Source: an uncultured Candidatus Peribacteria bacterium (lineage in GTDB: Bacteria > Patescibacteriota > Gracilibacteria > BD1-5 > UBA6164). From it: a stretch of DNA of 49,298 nucleotides. Positions 163-33,477 of this stretch are shown in pieces. The translations under genes were made by a program, and so were the position numbers. Positions within the stretch are counted from its first letter, which is position 1, and each line of letters begins with the position of its first letter. Location of the stretch: contig CAZPIB010000002.1 in NCBI GenBank assembly GCA_964586815.1, forward strand, positions 1-49,298. The letters run 5' to 3'. The notes beneath the pieces are model-generated. The model was not told where the DNA came from. It saw only the letters and a program-made list of their open reading frames with translations, and did no database searches.

Positions 163-3100
163 TTACCAAACTTTTCTTAGTCTTTTTTTCTTTTTAGGTT
201 CAAAAACTTTATTCCAATCTTCTAAATTATCTTTTTGATCTTCTGTTGTATGATTACTTCTTTTAACTAAGTTTCTTATCTTAGCAATATGTAATCCAAC
301 TAAAAAACTATTTGTAATATCATCTTTAAACATACTTTTCATAGCAAGCCTACCCTTATTATCTTCATCTTCATAGATAAAATTCATTTCTTCTAATAAA
401 TCTTTATTTGAGGTTTTTAAAACCTCAACTATTCATTCTTCCATAAAATCTACTGCATTTCATATTAATCTAGTTTTAGAGACTCTCCAATCTATCCCTT
501 TTGATGATTCTGTATCTCAAGAAGTATATCAGATTTTAATGAGTGTTTTATCTTTAAAAGTATGCTTAAATGCTTCATTGAATCATTCTCATACTCATCT
601 AATATCAACTCAATATACTATCTTTGGAAAACTTCAGAATTGTTTAATGATTGTTTTTTGATAATATGAGATTTGTGTACTCCATTGTTTTTTATGAGAT
701 TTAGGTACAAATCCAGATAAAATAACATATATCTTTCAGTTAATAATATATAGAACTGTAAAAGCACTTCTATCTGCTCAAGGTCTAGCTGGATCAAAAG
801 TAATAATAAAATATCACTCTTCTCAAATAATTGGATATGAACTGGTTTGTAATGGCTTAAAAAGAATATCATCTCAACTGTTCCAGCTACAAAACCATTG
901 CCTTTGATTTTTGGCTTTTGCTTGATTTTTCATAACTCTTTCTCTAAGCTTTGGATTAACTAGAGGATTTTGAGTAATATCAATTTGATAATAACTAACA
1001 TCTGGTAGTGATTCTGATTTAACTGCAATTTTAATTCATGCTAATTCAATTCCTTTTTTTGCCTCCATTATTAAATCATAATAATATCATTTAGCAGTTT
1101 TTCAAGGAGTTCAAATTAAAATCATTCTTCAATTAGTTGTAGCAAGAGTTGGTTCAAGTACTTCTTCAAAAACATAATCACTAATTAATTGAGCCTCATC
1201 AATAATGATATTACTTAAAGTTAATCATAGTACATTTTCAGCATCTCAATCTAGTGTTCTAAAATAGATCTTAGTTCAACTTTTTGTATTTAAAATATAT
1301 CATTCAGATTTAAAGTGAGTAAATATCCCATCATCAAATTTATTAATAAACTTCAACATATAATTTCTAATTACATCTGTGGTTTTTTTAATATATCATC
1401 CAACTAAAGTATCTTCATTTGGTAGAAAACTTAATTCAACTGCTTTTTCAGCTATTGTCAAAGAATTATGAGTCAATATTCAGTTAGAAAAATATAATTC
1501 ATCATCTGATTTTACCGCTATAGTTACAACTTTTTCTTCTCAAATATATTCTATGTTTTTTATTTTAACCCAAAGATAATCTAACCAACTTTCTAAATTA
1601 TCTCAAATAAAGTGTTTTGATTTTATTTTTCTTCTTTGAAAAGGATAAGATGGCTTCTTATTGGTTCTACTAGTATTGGTTATATTATTGACTGCATCTA
1701 ATGGTATTAATGAAACTTTTCAATTAGTTTGAATGTTGTTATCTGTTAATCTTGCTTTAAATTTTGTATAATTTAATTTTGTAGTTATATCTATTTTTGA
1801 ATCTAATAAAATAAGACTCTCTTTGTTAGTTATATATAAATAATAAGCAAATTCTCTATGTTTTTTAAAATTACTTCTTATTTTTTTAGTTCTTATAGCA
1901 CAGATAACCCCTAACTTTAATAATAATAATTGAAGTTGAATAATTAATTGTTTCGAAGTAGAACAATATTCAATACTAGCTGCTCTATTATTAGATATAG
2001 ATAAATATGCATCAGTGTTAAATATTCATTCAAGAAAAGCCCATTGATTAATATTACTTGTTAAAAATACTTTATTGTCTATAAATTTTTCATAAGAATA
2101 TAAATCCACTCAATTAAAATTAGTCCTTTGTTTATATTTTTCAATATTATAAATATTTGATGTTCATTTTAAATTTGAAGTAATTTTATATTCAGAGATA
2201 ATATCTTTTAGTCTATTATGGTTTCAAGAAATTTGATTAGTTTTCCTGCATCAATCTCAAATAAAGTATCAAAGAAGCATAAAATCTTCTCTTGTGTGTG
2301 TTTCTTTTTTATTATCATTGTATCAAAAAGAGTAATTAAATGCTGTAGGAATGAATAAGTTAGCTTCTCTTTGTAGCCTTTCTTGTATTTTTCTTTCAGG
2401 AAGTGTTCTATTCTTATTTAATCTTCTGTTTTCTTTTAATATATCTAATTCTTTATTTAAATTAATGAATTTTTCAAATAAAGATTTAGCATTTATATAA
2501 TGTTCTTTATTATTTAATTTATTTGCATCCCATTTTTCTCAATTAAAATTATGAGAAAGTGGTATTCTATGTTCTTCAGATATTGTATGTTCCATTCAAT
2601 TTTCTAAAGTAATCTTATAACTTGGTTTTTTTGAATAAGAAAGTTGTGTGATTTCAGTAAATTTATAATTACTTCACAATATTTTATCTCATACCTTTAC
2701 GTGTTGGGCTTCTTTATATCAATAATCTTGACAGAATACCTTTTGGTTGTATAGTACACTTTTACCTAGTTGTCTACTTCAATCAAGTAAGATTATTGGA
2801 GAATCATCCTGTAGTAGAGTATCTTGCCATTTTATATAGACTTGTTTAGTTCCCCATTTTGGCACAACATAAGGGGAGTATCAAGTTATCTTTCTTATTG
2901 CATCTCTTGAAATTGTTAAAACTTTCTTTTTCTTTTTATTTTTATTTTTATTTTGTTCTGGTTTTTGAATTGTAGGTCTTTCAGTCTGAATAAAAGTATT
3001 ATTTCTTCAGTCTTTTTTAACTAACCATAATTTAAGTTCATCAATTTTATAATAATATCATTTAAAGAAATAGAAATTATTGTATTGTGATCTTGTTTTT

Positions 3101-3342
3101 TCAGAAATGATTTTATTATAGTATTCATGTTTAGAATATAATTCTATCATTTTTATGGTATGCTCTTGTTGTTTTGTTATATCAGTAAAAATCATAGCAT
3201 TATCAATATTCTCAAAATGAAATTCAAAAGGCAAAGTAAAATACCTAAGATTTTTCCATTTCTTAGGTTCTGCTTCTGGTATTAAATCCTCCTGAGCTGG
3301 ATTGAATGTTCAATTTTTAACTAGCCAATATTTATCTATCAT
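163..3342 (-). CDS. terL: Terminase large subunit, 1059 aa as a precursor, interrupted by an intein.
   Basis: The frame was hand-scanned and contains no TAA or TAG. Walker A is ILLDGSRQLGK/S, Walker B is NIIIDEAQ and the coupling motif is MILIGTPG, with both Gly of LIGTPG encoded by TGA. The ATG overlaps the stop of the upstream ORF. Confidence 0.85.
1465..2760 (-). mobile_element. Intein of 432 aa with a LAGLIDADG homing-endonuclease domain, inserted in the TerL P-loop.
   Basis: The N-terminus is SVLYNQKV directly after GSRQLGK. Block B is ISEEHRI. The LAGLIDADG motifs are LLGYFIGDGC and FLEGIFNTDAYLS. The C-terminus is FSNGILTHN followed by Ser. The spliced extein restores GSRQLGKSLTIAEKAV. 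Confidence 0.8.
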
Positions 3343-3514
3343 TTTTATTATAATTAATATCTACGCTTTCATAATGTGCAATAAGCATTGACATAAAACC
3401 AGACATTGTTAATTCTAATTTTGAAGATTCTTCTCTAATTTTTTTATAATTAGATTCAGTTAACTTTAATGTAAAAACCTTACGAGGTGTTTTGTTTTTT
3501 ATATTATTATTCAT
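3332..3514 (-). CDS. Ribbon-helix-helix DNA-binding protein (60 aa), possibly a small-terminase-like or regulatory factor.
   Basis: It is a complete ORF even in the standard code. KVFTLKLTESNYKKIREESSKLELTMSGFMSMLIAHY has the strand-helix-helix pattern. The ORF overlaps both neighbouring genes. Confidence 0.6.
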   Translation of the reverse strand: MNNNIKNKTPRKVFTLKLTESNYKKIREESSKLELTMSGFMSMLIAHYESVDINYNKNDR

Positions 3515-17783: not shown

Positions 17784-18017
17784 ATGGAATATATGGAAGT
17801 AAAATATGAGGTTTATAGATTTCATAAATGGTGGAAAAATAGTTTTATAATACCTATGTGCTTTGAAAAAGATTTAGATTTTTGAGTATGTACAGATAAA
17901 ATAAAAATAACAAAAGAAGCAACGGCAACACTAGAAAAAATAGCCTATAAAAGAGATTTGTGAGAAATTAGAAACTTAACATATAAATATGTAGCTTATG
18001 ACAAAGAGAATAAATAG
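17784..18017 (+). CDS. Hypothetical protein (77 aa).
   Basis: The ORF is open with TGA=Gly and has a TAG stop. Confidence 0.5.
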
Positions 18018-18453
18018 AAAGCAAGTGGATCAATTTCTAATTGAACTAGATGCTTTTTTAGAAAAATATTCTGAACAATTAACTGAAGATGATATTTTTG
18101 ATTTTATTATTCCAATTAGAATGTCTAAGCCTTGAACTTTTAGAGCTGCTTGAGTAATTCCTTTACCAACATTAGTTAAATTAATAAATGTACAAGGGAA
18201 AATTAATAGGACTGAACAGTTTGTAAGAAAAGCTGCATATGCAGCAGACTTACATATAGTAAAATGAATTTCTTATACTGATATTTTTTATAGAATTCTA
18301 AAGAATAAATGAAGACTATTTTTTAAACAAGAAAAATGATTAATACTTAAAAACTTTTATGAAAAATATTGAGAGGATTTTATACTTCCAGTTGAATATG
18401 GTCAGATAAATACAGATTTATTGTATAAATGAAATTATATTTTACCAAAATAA
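17998..18453 (+). CDS. Hypothetical protein (151 aa).
   Basis: The ORF overlaps the end of the upstream gene by 20 nt, has six TGA and a TAA stop. Confidence 0.5.
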
Positions 18454-18519
18454 CATTTGCCTCTTATCCCTAAACAACTATACTAAGGACTATATTTTTA
18501 CTTTTATAAAACAAAACAA

Positions 18520-18783
18520 ATGGCATACCAAAATAAAGTATTACTTAGAGTTCGTCTTGATAGGAATTGATGGTTTAATTTTTCTAAATGAACACATAGA
18601 TTACAATTATGTTGAGATACTAGAAAAGATTGATTTTTCATTGAGCAATATGCTGACAAATTATGAAAAACAGAGTTTATGAAAGACTTTACAGAAATTT
18701 TAACTGCAATGGAGGCAGATAATAATCAACCTATCTTTACCCTATATGAGTTACCAGAAATTATTAATGGGAAATTAAATTAA
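18520..18783 (+). CDS. Hypothetical protein (87 aa).
   Basis: The ORF is open with TGA=Gly and has a TAA stop. Confidence 0.5.
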
Positions 18784-18802
18784 TTTAATAACTGAAGATT
18801 TT

Positions 18803-21800
18803 ATGAATACTATATCAAAATTTACCATTAATCCTCTATCGAAAAAATATTCTTCTGATGAAATGGAATTCATTGATGAATTAAATCTATCAAAAGAAAT
18901 ATGATATGAATTTCCTCATTATTATTCTGATAATACAATTACTGGATATAGAGCAGCAATAATTAAGTGTGATGAAGTGGATGTTGATTACATAGAGCAA
19001 ATATATAAATTAAAACCAAATAAGATTTATTGCCATAAAAATGTAAGGCATTTAGTTTTCTATTTTAAAAATAGTCTTAATAAATATGACTATAATAGAA
19101 TTACAAAAGCATTAGGTTTCTTATATAAATGAAAAGCTATTAATTATCATTTTTATCCATTAAATGGAGTAATTGAAGAGTTTTCTTCAGGAGAACTAAA
19201 CAAGTCATTATCTGATACTTGTACAAAACTATATTTTTTCCAACAACAAAGTATAAAATATCAAAAACTTTTTACAATTAGTGAATTTGATAAATATCTT
19301 GAAGTTGAGAAACTTAAGATAAAAGAAGTTGTAATAGCTTTATATAAAAAAGAGCCAGCAGTAATTCCAGATATTTTAAAATTAATTGATATTAGAAATA
19401 ATATTCATAAAGAATATTGAAATGCTTTTTCTTTTGTTCATCATTATTATTCTAGTATTGAAAAAGCTAAACAATTTTTTAAAAATGATTTTAAGATTTG
19501 ATTTGAAGAAACCAACTCTTTTGATTTTACTAAAGCAAAAGAATGAATAGTAATAAAAGAAGGAGAAAACTTATTTTTAAGTGAATTTTGATATTTTTCA
19601 CTTGATCCATCTGGAAATAATAAAAGATTAACTGATTTTTATATAAAAGTTCATGCAAAAATAGTATGAAAAGACTGAAAACATTTTTTTGTTGTTACTT
19701 TAGTTAACCAATGAGAATGAACTGAAACCAAGAAAATGATATGGGAAAATAAAACTTCTGGAACTACATTTTCTGATTTTATCCAATCTTATTGACCTTA
19801 TCATTATTATGGATGACCAGCTTTTATTAAAGAATTACATAGGCAAATATCTTCAACTAAGCAAATTTCAACAATTCAACAAGTAGTCTGATATTGACAT
19901 CATAAATCTGAATGAATAATTATTTTTAAAAATTGAATATGGGATATAAAAGAAAGATTATTCACAAAAAAGAAAGATAATGATGATGATTATTATTATA
20001 ATTATGATAGTAAATGATATTGGGTTACAGATAAGGGTTGAAATTCATTAACAGAAGTTCTATCTACTTGAGTGCCTAATTTGAATATTGAAGGAGTTGT
20101 TGAGATGGGTGATATTCTTGATTTTATGTCAGAATTATATGCTGATAATTCTTGAAGTTACTTAGTATTTTTAGCATTTGGGATGATGGGGTATCTTACA
20201 TATTGAGATTCAACAAAACCTTTCCCACTAGTATTTACTAGATGAGTAACTTGATGTGTAGATTCAGAAACTGAATACTTAACACCAACTTGATGGAAAT
20301 ATATTAAAGATTATCAAGAATGAGATATAATTTGAGAATTTAATAAAGATACTTGAAAATGTATTTTTAACAAACCATTAGATTATATTAAAGAAAAAGA
20401 TAATAGATTAGCATACAGAATTAAAACTAAAAATATAGATATGCTTCTAACAGAAGAGCATAGATTATTATCACAATCACAAAGAGATGTTTATTCTACT
20501 ACTCAATTATGAGAAGTTGTTTCTGATTTAGAATTACATAAGCACCATAAAACAAATAAATATAATATTCCTGTTGTTTTTGATATTGAAGACAAAATAG
20601 GAATAGATTTATCTGATGTAGAATTACAATTAATGGTGGCAGTTATAGCTAATTGAAGTTTTCCTAAAAAAAATGTTTGATGAAGGTGATGAGAGTATAT
20701 ATCCTATATTAAGATAAAAAAAGAAAATAAAAAAAAGAGACTAAGGGAAATATTGAATAAAACTGATATTTTTGTAGAAGAAAAGAATAATCCCGAATGA
20801 TATACTACTTTCAAATTTGATGCACCAAGAAAAGATAAGGTGTTTTCTAAATATTATTGGGGTGCTAGTAAATCTCAATTAAAAATAATTGCTGAGGAAG
20901 TAAGTTATTGGGATTGAAGTGTAGATAGAAAAGAAAGTGCTGACTTTGTTCAATATGCTTTACTTATAACTAATCAAAGTAATGATATAGAGATTATATC
21001 AACTCAACAAAAAAAGAAATCTACCAGAATAGAATATAAAGATATTGTTAGAGAACAACTTACTGATTGAAATAAATATTGTTTTACAACTAATACAAGC
21101 TATTGGGTAGCTAGAAGAAAATGAAAAATTTTTATAACGTGAAATAGTTGAAAATCTACTTTTAATGAATTACTTCAAAGAGTTTGGGGAATTAAAAAGG
21201 CTGGTACAGATTTTGAAAACTCTACACTTTTTACGATGACAGTAACATTATCTTATTTGATAAAGTTCCCATATTTTATTGCAGAATATAGAGAATCAGC
21301 AAATCAAAGATTACAGAAAGTAGGAACTTTAAGAAGTGTATTTGATAAAATTTCTCAAACTAAAGGTAGAGCAGACCAGTCTGTTGTGAAATATGATTAT
21401 TTTGCTACACCAGTATTAGATTGAGAAGAAATGATAACTGATCCTGCATTAAGGACAAGAAGCTTACAATTACAATTATTAAAAAAACATAAAATTCAAT
21501 GAAACTTCTCAAAAATTTTAAGAGAATGATGATCTATTTTAGATAAATTAATGTTTACTTATTTATCTAAAAGTACTTGAGATAAATACCAAGACTATTT
21601 AGATGAATGATATGATTTTTTTAAAAAACAAACTAGTCAAAATAGAATAGCTCAAAATGTTGCAAGTATTTATGCTTGATGTATGGCATTTAATTCAGAA
21701 AAAGATAATGAAGATCAATATAAAATGGTATTATCTGAAATAATACTTTTCCAAGAAGAGGATGTTTCAGAAAATTCTAATCAAATGCAAATCATTAAAT

Positions 21801-22105
21801 TAATTTCTAAATTTATGGAGTCTTCTTACAATTGAATATATCCATTAAAAGACAGGGTTGTTATTAGTTGGAATGCTTTTGAGGAATATGTGAGTAGACA
21901 TAGACTAAAAACAACGTTAAAAATAGACACATATAAAGAACATTTAATGATAAGGGATTTTAATATAGAATTTATTGAGGTTTGAATTGAGTGATGATTA
22001 GTTGAGTGAATTATTATTCCTTATAAATTAATCCCCAAAAATTTATTAGTCCACACAGAAACATATAAATTTTATAAGGATTGGAAAAATTTATCTTCTA
22101 ATTAA
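18803..22105 (+). CDS. Large replication ATPase, primase/helicase-like with a P-loop (D5/P4-like). The precursor is 1100 aa and is interrupted by an intein.
   Basis: The whole frame was hand-scanned and contains no TAA or TAG. The P-loop is split as FTRGVTG / SGKSTFNELL, and splicing restores GVTGSGKST. Confidence 0.7.
20255..21145 (+). mobile_element. Intein of 297 aa with a LAGLIDADG-like endonuclease region, inserted in the Walker A loop of the replication ATPase.
   Basis: The N-terminus is CVDSETEYLTPTGW and block B is LLTEEHRLL. The endonuclease-like motifs are LMVAVIANGSF and IIAEEVSYWDGSV. The C-terminus is YWVARRKGKIFITGN followed by Ser. The penultimate residue is Gly (TGA) rather than the usual His. 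Confidence 0.7.
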
Positions 22106-22111
22106 ATAAAT

Positions 22112-22591
22112 ATGGATCTTAATATAAGAAAGGCTATAATCAGAAGAGTTAAAAAATGAGGAAATCTTAAGGCTTCGTATGAAAAAATGATAACACAATC
22201 TAAATTTACTAAAGTTATTTATAGTGATTTTCTATTAGTAAGGGATCAATTTATGAAAAAAAAAGTTATAGATTGATATAAATGGTGTAATGTTTGTTGA
22301 TGCTCTCATCCTTATACATATGAGGTGTTTTGATATAATGGTTTTAATACAGATTGAAGTAGGAGATTACATTCAGTTTGTCTCAAGGCTAGATTACAAA
22401 TCAAGAAAAATATTATTATCATAAAAGATAAAAGATATGATTCTATGAAAAAATCTCAAAAGAAAAATAGGGAAAAAAATTGACATAAATGGCATAGGTT
22501 AAAGATTTCTGAAATGACTGAATCTGAACAAATTATTCAAAGGGAGAAATGGAGAAAATCTAGTAAAATTAAATATTTAAAGAAAAAGTAA
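22112..22591 (+). CDS. Basic protein with a Cys cluster (159 aa).
   Basis: It contains WCNVCGCSHP...HSVC and has a Lys/Arg-rich C-terminus. Confidence 0.5.
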
Positions 22592-22620
22592 AATTATTTT
22601 AATTTTTTAAATTATTTATT

Positions 22621-22911
22621 ATGTATATAAAATCATTAAGCCCATATCTTACTGTTTCTGAATTACTGCTACAGAAATTTTGAAACAAATATAAACAAAT
22701 CTTAATTTGATGTCAGTATCAACATTTAGCTGATTGTAAAATAGAAATTATTACATTTTTAAGAAGCAATGATTTAACTTTTTCTCAAATTGCCACTATA
22801 TTAAATAAAACTCATTCAACTATAATTTATACATATAACAAGCAAAAAGAGAATTTTTCATCAAAAGATTTAGAATATATCCATTCATTGGATAACAATG
22901 AAAAGATTTAA
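22621..22911 (+). CDS. HTH protein resembling DnaA domain IV (96 aa).
   Basis: LTFSQIATILNKTHSTIIYTYNK is comparable to the DnaA C-terminal R-D-H-T-T-V motif region. Confidence 0.4.
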
Positions 22912-22946
22912 TACAAAATGAAAATATATTTTATAATAATCTTATT

Positions 22947-23357
22947 ATGTTTAAATGGGAGGAAATTAGTTATTTTAAACTAAAAGGGAACTATAAAAAA
23001 TGAAGAATTGAATCTCAATTCCAGTCTGAATTATTATGAAAAATGAGATGAATGTGAAATATTTGTCATCATATTGCAGATATTTGATTGTGAAATAAAT
23101 TCTTAGATTTATTTTTTGTAACAAAAAAATGATTATGTTTATTTATTGAATTAAAGCAAATTCCTTGAAGTACTTTTAATGTTAAAAATTTTGAAGAGGA
23201 TCAAGTTATTCTTTTAAGAGAAATGGACAAAAGAAATCCAGAATTAGCTAGAGTGTGAATATTTTCAGTTAAACATAATACTTACAAAATATTAACATTT
23301 TCTGAAATCTGGAGAGCTCAAAATGAAAAAGGTTGAGTAAAAATTTTTAATAAATAA
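22947..23357 (+). CDS. PD-(D/E)XK nuclease, VRR-NUC or Holliday-junction-resolvase-like (136 aa).
   Basis: ESQFQ...NKFLDLFFVTKKGLCLFIELKQ fits the E...D...E-x-K pattern. Confidence 0.5.
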
Positions 23358-31163: not shown

Positions 31164-31191
31164 AATAAAAAAAGCCCTATTTATAAGGCTT
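31164..31191 (-). terminator. Weak intrinsic terminator after the methyltransferase gene.
   Basis: On the minus strand AAGCC-10 nt-GGCTT is followed by T8. The stem is only 5 bp. Confidence 0.4.
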
Positions 31192-33373
31192 ATTTAAGTA
31201 AATTATCAAATATAGCTTTTACTACAGGTACACTTACTGCATTACCTGCTTGTTTATATGCTTGTGAATTACTCATAAATTCAGTAGACCAGTTATCAGG
31301 GAAGCCCTGTAATCTTGCACACTCTACAGGTGTTAATTTTCTTATTATAAAATCGTCTAAAACTACCCCGTCTACTCCTGCTACTGTTAAAGTTCCACTT
31401 ATTCACTCTTTAATTCTGCTTCTTTTTGTTATACTTTTTGGATTATCTAAAATAACACCGTCCCCTATTTTAGCCTCAGCATATCATTTTTTAGTCCCAT
31501 TGTTTAATTTTATAAATTCATATATCTTTGGTCTATTTCAACCATCTCCAGCTGTTAGAGTTGGTACTAATCAATCCATACCAATAAAAATATTATCCTG
31601 ACTAAAATTACAAAAACTAGGATCCTTTAAATTTACTTGTAGTTTTATTTGTTTGGAATCTCTTGGAGTTATTTTATTATAAATTCTTTTTAAACTATCA
31701 AAACTTAATTTTTTATATTGTTCTTCGGTCATAAAAAATTTACTATCTACTTCTTTTTCTAAAATATCTTTTAAGAAAATATTTAATTCTTTACCTTCTG
31801 GGAAGTTGAAATAATCTAAAGTTCCCACACCTAATTTTCAAACTATAAAAACCCTTTGTCTATTTTGTGGCAATCAAAAATCTTTTGTATTTAAAACTTG
31901 AAATTTTACATCATAACCAGCATCTTTTATTCTATCTAAAATACTTTCAAAAAATCATTTGAATTTTTTATTTAAAAGCCCTTTTACATTTTCAAAAATA
32001 AAATATTGTGGTTGTTTTGTTTCTAAAATCTGTAATAAATATTCAACTAGTATAGTTCTTCAACCTTCCTTTAGGTTTTGTTTTCACGCTACACTAACAT
32101 CCTGACAATTATGTACAATGCAATTGTTTGCTGTGTAAGAATTATCATTTTCAACTTCTATATTATAAACAGTATTTGTTTCTTCTAAATATTCTTTTGA
32201 TTTAAAAGGTAGCCACATATATCAATTTATATTAATTCAATTGTCTTGTGTTTTTTTTTCGAACTTAATATCTAATGAATAAGTATCCCTCTGGTTAACT
32301 TCTCTTCATTCAATAATTGTTTTAGGTTTTCTTTTTGTATAATATACAGATGTAGGAGTTCAATATACTTTATGAACTAATTGTTGTATTCATAATATAA
32401 GTTTTTTTGATACAGATGAAACACGGTAATATCACTTATCCTTATAATAGTGTCAATCTCAGTCTATATATCATATTAATAATTGCTCTAAGTATTCTTT
32501 ATTTAATCACATTATTGATGTTGGTATAAATTTTCAATAACTGTATTTTCAAAATTGTTCCATATACTCCACAAATTCTTTATTTGCAATATAATATTTT
32601 AAAACAGTTCTGTCATCTACTTTTGAATAATTAAATAATCACTCTAGTAATTCTTCTACTTCTTTGTATTGATTTTTATTACAACACAATACTACTCTGT
32701 GTGATTTACGCTGTATATTTGGTCATCTACTATAACTACCCCACCATCCATCTGCTAGAAGCCTTCAAACTAATTTGTAAAATTTTAAACTTTTATCAGA
32801 ACATTCTGTAAGATCATCTTGAATGTTAAATCATATAAAATCTCATTTATTTAAATCTTCTACATTTTTCCACTTCGGTTCACTAAAAACTCTTTCATAT
32901 TTTCTAATTGAATTATTCCACTTTTTAGTCATTTCCCTTACATAATATGGATGCTCATTTGTTACAAAAGTTTCTAATGCTCCCTGTATTTTAACATTAT
33001 AAATTCATTTTTTATTTGGAGTTACAAAATGCCTTAATACTTTTTGATATTTATTTGTGTGTGTTAATACATAATCTCAAACTTCCATATTTTTAATATC
33101 TTTATATCACTTTTGTGTTAATACCATTGTTCATTCTTTAAAACAAGGAAATCCACCAGTTAATAAATCAAAATCAGGTAAATTTTCTATATCTATTTTT
33201 GTTATATCTCATAAATCAGGACTAGTTGCAAAATGTTCTTTATAAACTATTTTAGCAAATTTATCTATTTCGCTAAAGCCTATACATTCAATATTTTCTT
33301 TACCTATACTTTTCTCTAAGGCTAAATGAAAACCACCTATACCAGAAAAGGTATCTAAAAATTTCATAATCAT
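31190..33373 (-). CDS. DNA (cytosine-5) methyltransferase. The precursor is 727 aa and is interrupted by an intein at the catalytic Cys.
   Basis: The frame was hand-scanned and is open. Motif I is FLDTFSGIGGFHLAL. Motif IV is split as LLTGGFP / CQDVSVAGKQ. Further motifs are ENVKGL, QNRQRVFIVG, RKLTPVECARLQGFPDNW and AGNAVSVPV. Confidence 0.85.
32108..33145 (-). mobile_element. Intein of 346 aa with a LAGLIDADG homing endonuclease, inserted between Pro and the catalytic Cys of methyltransferase motif IV.
   Basis: The N-terminus is CFKEGTMVLT and block B is VTNEHPYYV. The LAGLIDADG motifs are LVGRLLADGWWG and LLIGYIDGDGHY. The C-terminus is TANNCIVHN followed by Cys. Confidence 0.8.
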
Positions 33374-33477
33374 TTTATAAAAAGTTAAATTTGAATTATA
33401 CAATTGTTTTTAATCTGATACTAATCATTTTAACTGGTTACAATCTGTAACCGTTTGATTTGACTTTTTTTTATAAA

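What the first reader, a model, noticed from the sequence alone, without database searches (positions are those of the whole stretch)
20255..21145. Second intein, in the P-loop of the replication ATPase, ending in Gly-Asn instead of His-Asn
In the 1100-aa ORF, FTRGVTG is followed by CVDSETEYLTPTGW, an intein block A. About 297 aa later, YWVARRKGKIFITGN is followed by SGKSTFNELL. Excision yields GVTGSGKST, a textbook Walker A. The insert contains LAGLIDADG-like segments (LMVAVIANGSF, IIAEEVSYWDGSV). The penultimate residue is Gly, encoded by TGA, where most inteins have His. The Gly of the restored GSGKST is also TGA, so the element is fully adapted to code 25.
Basis: partly seen in the sequence, partly recalled or inferred. 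Interest (0 to 1): 0.75.

Follow-up and report, generated by a model that had tools for sequence, protein, structure and literature searches.

The report
Recoded phage intein splitting an ATPase P-loop
This is a real self-splicing intein that interrupts the ATP-binding loop of a phage ATPase, but its Gly-Asn ending is normal for a very large intein family found in ordinary phages and bacteria, so the case is solid rather than exceptional.

Summary
Nt 20255-21145 encode a 297-aa in-frame insert in the 1100-aa ORF 18803-22105. Fifteen homologues of about 800 aa lack the insert and read FTRGVTG|SGKS without a break.

The insert is an intein. It has Cys1, block B TEEH, C-terminal Asn and Ser+1. 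The AlphaFold model (pLDDT 91) matches only endonuclease-bearing inteins in the PDB (TliVMA, PI-SceI, PI-PfuI).

TGA means Gly. It makes up 5.2% of codons. Standard-code relatives have Gly, and almost never Trp, at the intein's TGA positions.

The emphasis on Gly-Asn is misplaced. The insert belongs to a large family that Pfam does not detect (5503 representative proteins). That family ends in ...ITGN in 136 of 146 members. It always sits before [S/C/T]-G, in the Walker A loops of unrelated ATPases and also in MetK and RtcB. A distant member, the mycobacteriophage Bethlehem RDF intein, has been shown to splice with its penultimate Gly.

This window's copy has a decaying homing endonuclease, with Asp133 changed to Asn and two in-frame deletions. 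It is a new member of a known kind and of modest interest.

The parts
18803..22105 (+). Host gene: 1100-aa precursor under code 25, giving an 803-aa ATPase after splicing. The stop codon TAA is at 22103-22105.
   Evidence: In public databases the same protein is held translated with code 4 (P0003).
18803..20254 (+). N-extein (484 aa), ending ...FTRGVTG. This is the first half of Walker A. Both of its Gly residues are TGA.
   Evidence: Collinear with the intein-free homologues.
20255..21145 (+). Intein, 297 aa, from Cys1 to Asn297. It is a Hint splicing domain with a LAGLIDADG endonuclease domain nested inside.
   Evidence: Precise absence in about 800-aa homologues. AF2 pLDDT 91. Foldseek top hits are the inteins 7qsu, 7qst, 1vde and 1dq3. 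The family profile hits 5503 representative proteins.
20255..20296 (+). Block A, CVDSETEYLTPTGW. Cys1 is the presumed first nucleophile.
   Evidence: C1, T6, E7 and W14 are each present in 146 of 146 family members.
20435..20473 (+). Block B, IDMLLTEEHRLLS, with Thr66 and His69 (the TxxH motif, 20450-20461).
   Evidence: His69 is present in 146 of 146 members. Position 66 is S, T or C in all of them.
20630..20662 (+). First LAGLIDADG motif, LMVAVIANGSF. The catalytic acidic residue is Asn here (AAT 20651-20653).
   Evidence: The family has D in 143 members, E in 3 and N in none at this position. The sibling contig L007 has GAT.
20885..20923 (+). Second LAGLIDADG motif, IIAEEVSYWDGSV. Asp220 is retained.
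   Evidence: W219 is present in 146 of 146 members and D220 in 144 of 146.
20924..20990 (+). Region with two in-frame deletions relative to the 97.6%-identical sibling allele. One removes 33 bp (11 aa, RNGSIHFYTTI) at about 20928. The other removes 72 bp (24 aa) at about 20981.
   Evidence: Nucleotide alignment of the window against L007. Protein alignment A1.
21074..21145 (+). Blocks F and G, KYCFTTNTSYWVARRKGKIFITGN. Key residues are Cys276, Arg287, Thr295, Gly296 (TGA 21140-21142) and Asn297 (AAT 21143-21145).
   Evidence: Family counts out of 146: C276 146, R287 146, T295 137, G296 136, N297 146.
21146..22105 (+). C-extein (319 aa plus stop), starting with Ser+1 (AGT), Gly (TGA), then KST. 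This is the second half of Walker A.
   Evidence: The first three residues after the intein are SGK in 61, CGK in 58 and TGK in 13 of 147 family members.

Best explanation
Nt 20255-21145 encode a class 1 type intein that carries a LAGLIDADG homing endonuclease domain. It sits between the third and fourth variable residues of the Walker A motif (G-V-T-G | S-G-K-S-T) of an 803-aa ATPase from a phage that reads TGA as glycine.

Inferred mechanism:
- The precursor cannot bind ATP, because 297 residues split the P-loop.
- Cys1, assisted by block B Thr66 and His69, makes the thioester at the Gly(-1)-Cys1 bond.
- Ser+1 attacks this thioester to form the branched intermediate.
- Asn297 cyclises to release the intein.
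- An O-to-N acyl shift then restores GVTGSGKST.
- Asn cyclisation runs without a penultimate His and, in this copy, without a block F His. This is normal for its family, whose conserved C-terminal signature is Y-C-F...R-R...I-T-G-N.

Family. It is very large and occurs mainly in the standard code. It is always found immediately before a [Ser/Cys/Thr]-Gly dipeptide in glycine-rich nucleotide-binding loops. Hosts include RecD2-like, DnaB and T7-type, SNF2, AAA, clamp-loader, PhoH and IstB-like ATPases, plus MetK (GGGAF|SGKD) and RtcB (VDIG|CGM).

This copy. It has been fully recoded: 15 of its 17 Gly codons are TGA. Its endonuclease is in decay (Asp133 to Asn, two deletions). It is therefore probably a vertically inherited element that still splices but no longer homes.

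Shown: the insertion, the fold, family membership, the reading of the code, and the endonuclease lesions.

Inferred: actual splicing, the order of the chemical steps, and loss of endonuclease activity.
For: Insertion and restoration of the P-loop:
- 12 intein-free homologues, read, and 3 more.
- The DNA of the free allele reads ...GGT GTT ACT GGG TCT TGA AAG..., against the window's ...TGA GTA ACT TGA | AGT TGA AAA....

Fold:
- AF2 gives pLDDT 91.0 and pTM 0.86.
- All 12 PDB hits with E <= 1e-3 are endonuclease-bearing inteins. Mini-inteins, hedgehog Hint domains and I-DmoI follow lower in the list.

Family:
- 5503 representative proteins at E <= 1e-3 and 681 at E <= 1e-30.
- 133 cultured-phage records carry the family, with junctions read.

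Genetic code:
- TGA is 5.24% of codons, GGN 2.1% and TGG 0.8%.
- At the intein's 15 TGA positions, 49 standard-code homologues have Gly in 348 of 591 cells and Trp in 1 of 591.
- At TGG positions they have Trp in 114 of 196 cells and Gly in none.
- At the penultimate position, 47 of 49 have Gly.

Splicing with a penultimate Gly:
- The Bethlehem phosphoesterase/RDF intein (C95-N411...KIHLTGN|S) matches the family HMM at E 1.5e-9.
- This is the intein shown to splice completely, with G316H slower (PMC5050341).

Endonuclease decay.
Against: - No Pfam or NCBIfam intein, Hint or LAGLIDADG model reaches E <= 1 on this insert, and a PDB sequence search finds nothing. The intein assignment rests on the insertion logic, the motifs, the predicted fold and a family profile built here.
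The model was therefore built on the code-4 version, with Trp at the 15 TGA positions, plus a 53-sequence alignment.
- Splicing has not been observed for this protein.
- Neither a penultimate His nor a block F His is present, so the catalytic helper for Asn cyclisation is unknown.
- The match to the Bethlehem intein is weak (23.6 bits), and its E-value is for a search of a single sequence.
Confidence: 0.9

Rival explanations
1. It is a dead, non-splicing insertion. The Hint domain has lost activity, so the 1100-aa product is a permanently disabled ATPase, or the gene is a pseudogene.
For: The endonuclease part is clearly decaying. There is no penultimate His and no block F His. No splicing data exist.
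Against: Every residue that is invariant in 146 family members and tied to splicing is intact: C1, T6, E7, H69, C276, R287, N297 and a Ser at +1. The ORF is open for 1100 codons. Against P0007 the Hint parts are 84-88% identical, compared with 65% for the endonuclease part. Both lesions are confined to the endonuclease domain.
Confidence: 0.05
2. The family uses a non-class-1 route, or a regulated one. The invariant block F Cys276, together with Thr295 (the C and T of the class 3 'WCT' triad), would act as a branch nucleophile. Alternatively, Cys276 forms a redox-sensitive disulfide with Cys1 that gates activation of the ATPase.
For: C276 is present in 146 of 146 members and T295 in 137 of 146. 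Class 3 inteins appear among the Foldseek mini-intein hits (6zgq, 6bs8). Class 3 P-loop inteins in DnaB are known (PMC6195587, listed).
Against: Cys1 is invariant, whereas class 3 inteins lack a residue-1 nucleophile. The B:12 position is Leu or Val, not Trp. Cys is the second commonest residue at F:4 among inteins in general (PMC4031507).
Confidence: 0.07
3. TGA is read as Trp (code 4), so the intein ends in Trp-Asn and the P-loop reads WVTW...SWKST.
For: Public databases hold this protein translated that way (P0003).
Against: It would make Trp about 6% and Gly about 2% of residues. It would destroy the Walker A Gly-Lys. Standard-code homologues have Gly in 348 cells against Trp in 1 cell at these positions.
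Confidence: 0.01

Closest known systems
Mycobacteriophage Bethlehem RDF (phosphoesterase) intein, studied by Kelley et al. 2016, mBio (PMC5050341)
   Same: It is a phage intein of about 317 aa with Cys1, a LAGLIDADG endonuclease, a block F Cys and the ending ...LTGN|S. It matches the family profile built here (E 1.5e-9). It was shown to splice completely with a penultimate Gly, and G316H slows splicing.
   Different: It sits in a metallophosphoesterase motif (EGNHD|C...N|SRA), not in a P-loop. It is only distantly related (23.6 bits). It uses the standard genetic code, and its endonuclease is active (toxic in E. coli).
P-loop inteins of DnaB (site b), MCM (site a), RFC-S and RadA (Novikova et al. 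2016, PMC4760082)
   Same: They are inteins that interrupt the Walker A loop of replication or recombination ATPases, so ATP binding requires splicing.
   Different: The family's own position in the loop is before the fourth variable residue (GxxxG|[S/C/T]GK[ST]). By contrast, the terminase intein in this same window sits after Gly-Lys. The exact residue positions of the DnaB, MCM and RFC sites were not compared here. The classical P-loop inteins I know of end in His-Asn; that is from my own knowledge and was not checked.
Anaeramoeba cluster 1 inteins that moved between the P-loops of non-homologous proteins (PNAS 2023, PMC10710043)
   Same: One intein lineage is found in the Walker A loops of unrelated proteins, which implies non-allelic spread.
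   Different: Those are class 3 inteins with atypical N-termini in a eukaryote. This family has an invariant Cys1, is bacterial and phage-borne, and also occupies MetK and RtcB.
Archaeal and yeast VMA inteins with LAGLIDADG endonucleases (TliVMA 7qsu, PhoVMA 7qst, PI-SceI 1vde)
   Same: They are the best structural matches. They share the Hint horseshoe with a nested two-motif LAGLIDADG domain.
   Different: Sequence identity is 8-12% and TM-score is only 0.5-0.6. They are larger, with extra DNA-recognition regions, and they are also in a different host protein.

Membership tests
Intein (class 1 protein-splicing element) | An in-frame insertion that is absent from orthologues, whose removal restores a conserved host motif | tested here: met
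   Fifteen homologues of about 800 aa lack it. The twelve whose sequences were read show FTRG[VIT]TGSGK[ST] continuously. Removal gives GVTGSGKST.
Intein (class 1 protein-splicing element) | Cys or Ser at position 1, and Asn at the C-terminus followed by Cys, Ser or Thr at +1 | tested here: met
   Cys1 is TGT at 20255. Asn297 is AAT at 21143. Ser+1 is AGT at 21146.
Intein (class 1 protein-splicing element) | Block B TxxH | tested here: met
   T66-E-E-H69. The His is invariant in 146 family members.
Intein (class 1 protein-splicing element) | Penultimate His (G:6). This is highly conserved but not obligatory. | tested here: not met
   Gly296 (TGA). The family has Gly in 136 of 146 members. Splicing-competent exceptions are documented (PMC5050341).
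Intein (class 1 protein-splicing element) | Hint fold | tested here: met
   AF2 pLDDT 91. Foldseek gives probability 1.00 to the inteins 7qsu, 7qst, 1vde and 1dq3 and to mini-inteins. Caveat: the modelled sequence had Trp at the TGA positions.
Intein (class 1 protein-splicing element) | A match to curated intein or Hint profiles (Pfam PF14890, PF13403, PF07591; NCBIfam) | tested here: not met
   No hit at E <= 1. The two other inteins in the window do match.
Intein (class 1 protein-splicing element) | Autocatalytic excision with ligation of the exteins | not testable with these tools
   Needs a splicing assay or proteomics.
LAGLIDADG homing endonuclease (two-motif, intein-nested) | Two LAGLIDADG helices, each ending in a catalytic Asp or Glu | tested here: not met
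   Both helices are present (20630-20662 and 20885-20923). Motif 1 ends in Asn133, whereas the family has D in 143, E in 3 and N in none. Motif 2 keeps Asp220.
LAGLIDADG homing endonuclease (two-motif, intein-nested) | An intact DNA-binding beta-sheet scaffold | tested here: inconclusive
   11-aa and 24-aa deletions relative to the sibling allele lie just after motif 2. The model has low pLDDT (54-79) at residues 221-260.
Class 3 intein (WCT) | No nucleophile at residue 1, Trp at B:12, Cys at F:4 and Thr at G:5 | tested here: not met
   Cys1 is invariant and B:12 is Leu or Val. Only Cys F:4 and Thr G:5 are present.
'...ITGN' glycine-loop intein family (defined here by profiles A2/A4) | CVDxxTE start, YCF...RR...ITGN end, and insertion before [S/C/T]-G | tested here: met
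   The window sequence scores 477.7 bits against profile A2, but it was one of the five sequences that profile was built from. All signature residues are present. The site is G|SGK.

The most novel reading that the evidence does not exclude
The ...ITGN family may be a distinct, so far undescribed intein lineage. It does without both the penultimate His and the block F His, and uses an invariant Tyr-Cys-Phe / Arg-Arg constellation for Asn cyclisation. Its endonucleases may recognise DNA encoding Gly-[Ser/Cys/Thr]-Gly loops loosely enough to hop between unrelated nucleotide-binding proteins (P-loop ATPases, MetK, RtcB). The code-25 copy here would then be a lineage trapped behind a genetic-code barrier.
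Probability: 0.2. Interest if true: 0.6.

Novelty: new member of a known kind. Interest (0 to 1): 0.3.

Why it matters
For annotation:
- The gene should be called as one 1100-aa precursor under code 25.
- It carries a 297-aa intein whose removal gives an 803-aa P-loop ATPase.
- Public databases currently hold the protein mistranslated with Trp at 51 positions.

For intein biology:
- This case adds a code-25 phage to the hosts of a very large intein family that Pfam misses.
- That family ends in Gly-Asn and targets glycine-rich nucleotide-binding loops in many unrelated proteins.
- The copy shows the expected late stage of the homing cycle, with the endonuclease decaying while the splicing residues are kept.
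- Heavy use of TGA for Gly, including the residue next to the scissile Asn, means this allele could not be expressed after transfer to a standard-code genome.

None of this overturns current understanding.

Tried and rejected
- Pfam, NCBIfam and PDB sequence searches of the insert gave no intein hit. Only PHROG 32482 ('PhoH-like', evidently an intein-containing family) matched, at 5.5e-25.
- A first AlphaFold run on the MetK relative with a 5-sequence alignment failed (pLDDT 43) and was not used.
The code-4 database version was used as the query instead.
- Megablast of 18000-23000 against cultured phages found nothing.
- Attempts to name the host ATPase all failed: Pfam, PHROG and NCBIfam, a PDB search with a 12-sequence profile, and a second profile search of 5.8 billion proteins, which found only 3 more unannotated relatives.
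- 'Replication ATPase' is therefore supported only by the neighbours: an SF2 helicase, a DnaG-type CHC2 zinc ribbon and an RNase T-like exonuclease.
- The code-4 reading was considered and rejected.
- The class 3 reading was considered and rejected because of the invariant Cys1.
- No paper describing MetK inteins or inteins in code-25 phages was found.

Full report
**1. The observation**

The window has about 24% G+C. With TAA and TAG as the only stops, long ORFs appear that are full of in-frame TGA.

The ORF 18779-22105 has its first ATG at 18803. It has 1100 codons and 51 TGA codons.

At nt 20255 the text ...FTR-G-V-T-G is followed by CVDSETEYLTPTGW. At nt 21145 the text ...YWVARRKGKIFIT-G-N is followed by S-G-KSTFNELL. 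The segment is exactly 297 codons.

The following are all TGA:
- the penultimate Gly (21140-21142);
- the Gly after Ser+1 (21149-21151);
- both Gly residues of GVTG (20243-20254).

Every statement of fact in the finding is correct.

**2. The genetic code**

In eleven large ORFs, TGA is 5.24% of codons, all GGN codons together are 2.1%, and TGG is 0.8%. Reading TGA as Gly gives normal Gly and Trp contents. Reading it as Trp gives 6% Trp.

A direct test used an alignment with 49 standard-code relatives of the intein:
- At the window's 15 TGA positions the relatives have Gly in 348 of 591 cells and Trp in 1.
- At its 4 TGG positions they have Trp in 114 of 196 cells and Gly in none.
- At the penultimate position 47 of 49 have Gly.

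No tRNA gene lies in the window, so the phage presumably relies on a host that uses code 25.

**3. It is an insertion**

A search with the spliced 803-aa sequence found the window's own protein, translated with code 4 in the database (P0003). It also found 12 homologues of 800-821 aa that lack the segment and one of 1102 aa that has it. A profile search later added three more homologues of about 800 aa.

The twelve whose sequences were read show FTRG[VIT]TGSGK[ST] without interruption.

At the DNA level, the free allele in L008 reads ...AGA GGT GTT ACT GGG TCT TGA AAG TCA.... The window's flanks read ...AGA TGA GTA ACT TGA | AGT TGA AAA TCT....

**4. It is an intein**

Curated profiles fail. 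Pfam, NCBIfam and a PDB sequence search gave nothing for the insert. The two other inteins in the window are recognised by Pfam.

Homology gave the way in. The insert is:
- 44% identical to an insert in a small unrelated ATPase (P0001, ...GGVTG|C...ITGN|TGKST);
- 32-34% identical to an insert in a standard-code S-adenosylmethionine synthetase (P0002/P0019...HGGGAF|CVDSETEYLTPTGWKYI...KIFITGN|SGKDPSKVDRS).

In that MetK gene the penultimate codon is GGA.

A profile of five such inserts, searched against 1.84 billion representative proteins, gave 5503 hits at E <= 1e-3 and 681 at E <= 1e-30.

With a 53-sequence alignment, AlphaFold2 modelled the window's insert at pLDDT 91.0 and pTM 0.86.

Foldseek against the PDB gave the following:
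- All twelve hits with E <= 1e-3 are endonuclease-bearing inteins: TliVMA 7qsu at 7e-10, PhoVMA, PI-SceI, PI-PfuI and 2cw7.
- Mini-inteins, hedgehog Hint domains and the LAGLIDADG enzyme I-DmoI follow lower in the list.

The splicing residues are all present: Cys1, Thr66 and His69 (TEEH), Asn297 and Ser+1.

**5. The family, and why Gly-Asn is ordinary here**

Among 146 full-length representatives, nearly all in the standard code:

| Position | Count out of 146 |
|---|---|
| Cys1 | 146 |
| His69 | 146 |
| Cys276 (block F) | 146 |
| Arg287 | 146 |
| Thr295 | 137 |
| Gly296 | 136 (K 4, H 3, and S, A, M once each) |
| Asn297 | 146 |

At the position equivalent to the block F His, the family has Gly in 82, His in 30, Ser in 17 and Thr in 11. 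The window has Ser.

In the 147 junctions read, the three residues after the intein are SGK in 61 members, CGK in 58 and TGK in 13. The residue before the intein is almost always Gly.

Pfam identified the hosts of a sample of members as:
- RecD2-like helicase;
- T7-type primase-helicase and DnaB;
- clamp loader;
- PhoH;
- an IstB-like ATPase;
- an SNF2 helicase fused to a methylase;
- an AAA ATPase.

MetK is also a host.

In cultured phages, 133 records carry the family. Examples are Pseudomonas phage KIL4 primase/helicase (SASG|TGKST) and Bacillus phage JBP901 RtcB (VGVDIG|CGMEV).

All 21 full-length loci found in bacterial genomes end in GN.

The family HMM also matches the mycobacteriophage Bethlehem phosphoesterase/RDF intein (C95-N411, 317 aa...KIHLTGN|S) at E 1.5e-9. 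Kelley et al. showed that this intein splices completely with its native penultimate Gly, and that G316H causes precursor to accumulate. They also noted that the penultimate His is poorly conserved in phage inteins (PMC5050341).

**6. State of this copy**

A contig 97.6% identical in nucleotides (L007, protein P0018, 1135 aa) carries the same intein without two in-frame deletions found in the window. The deletions are 33 bp at about 20928 and 72 bp at about 20981. That contig also has GAT where the window has AAT (20651-20653).

This codon is the catalytic acidic residue of the first LAGLIDADG motif. The family has D in 143 members, E in 3 and N in none.

The 11-aa deletion removes the strand segment just after the second motif. 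The model's confidence drops there.

Against P0007, the Hint parts are 84-88% identical and the endonuclease part 65%.

Inference: the endonuclease is inactive and the element persists by vertical descent, with selection acting only on splicing.

**7. Host protein and context**

The extein matches no family in Pfam, PHROG or NCBIfam, and no PDB sequence. Its only relatives are about 17 unannotated proteins from contigs whose stored translations read TGA as Trp.

Upstream genes encode an SF2 helicase, a C5 methylase, a DnaG-type CHC2 zinc-ribbon protein and an RNase T-like exonuclease. 'Replication ATPase' is therefore plausible but is inferred from context only.

**8. Comparison with what is known**

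P-loop inteins are well documented in DnaB, MCM, RFC and RadA (PMC4760082). Spread of one intein lineage among the P-loops of non-homologous proteins has been described for class 3 inteins of Anaeramoeba (PMC10710043).

The present family differs in four ways:
- it has an invariant Cys1;
- it ends in ...TGN;
- its position is before the [S/C/T]-G;
- it extends to MetK and RtcB.

I found no paper describing the family as such, nor any describing inteins in code-25 phages. The held library is incomplete, so this is not proof of absence.

**9. Verdict**

It is a new member of a known kind. The Gly-Asn ending and the P-loop site are both typical of its family.

The points of modest interest are:
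- the complete TGA recoding;
- the decaying endonuclease;
- the size and target range of a family that curated profile libraries miss.

Noticed in passing
window 1465-2760 (-), inside ORF 163-3360 (-): There is another intein in a P-loop. The large terminase subunit reads ...DGSRQLGK | SVLYNQKVFCQDYG...SNGILTHN | SLTIAEKAV. The intein is 432 aa, starts with Ser1, ends in His-Asn, and sits after Gly-Lys. Pfam detects Intein_splicing, LAGLIDADG_3 and Terminase_6N.
   Followed up: partly
window 32108-33145 (-), inside ORF 31190-33409 (-): There is a third intein, in the catalytic Pro-Cys motif of a C5 cytosine DNA methyltransferase...LLTGGFP | CFKEGTMV...NNCIVHN | CQDVSVAGK. It is 346 aa. Pfam detects DNA_methylase, Intein_splicing, Hint_2 and LAGLIDADG_3.
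   Followed up: partly
whole window; protein P0003: The window is a complete 49298-bp NCBI contig. In the public protein collection its proteins are translated with code 4, which puts Trp at every TGA. There are 51 wrong residues in this protein alone. No tRNA genes are found in the window.
   Followed up: partly
L003 6001-8169 (P0019); also P0024, P0042, P0050, P0103, P0141, P0152, P0161: The same intein family splits the GGGAF|SGKD phosphate-binding loop of S-adenosylmethionine synthetase (MetK). In L003 the neighbourhood looks phage-like, with many short genes that have no Pfam hit. I found no paper describing MetK inteins.
   Followed up: partly
L005 (Bacillus phage JBP901 RtcB); L026 (Melioribacteraceae): Family members also sit in RtcB RNA ligase at VGVDIG|CGM. 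This is not a Walker A loop, but it has the same Gly|Cys-Gly local sequence.
   Followed up: partly
L006 1430-4231 (Pseudomonas phage KIL4, KU130129.1): The primase/helicase CDS that contains a family member is annotated as a join of two pieces, and so is the neighbouring DNA polymerase. The depositors may have treated the inteins as intervening sequences.
   Followed up: no
L001 1426-2886 (P0001): A code-25 contig encodes a very small host for the same intein. It has a 67-aa N-extein and a 94-aa C-extein with GGVTG|TGKST. This relative is 44% identical to the window's intein. The function of the host protein is unknown.
   Followed up: no
L025 (JAYRRZ010000060.1, labelled Candidatus Gracilibacteria MAG): This family member has no in-frame TGA at all in its intein. 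That is unexpected for a code-25 organism. The contig may be misbinned or may come from a standard-code element.
   Followed up: no
P0023 about aa 262-302; P0028 about aa 310-356: Two T7-type primase-helicases that carry a family intein in the P-loop also show a second LAGLIDADG_3 hit upstream of it. This suggests a second intein in the same protein.
   Followed up: no
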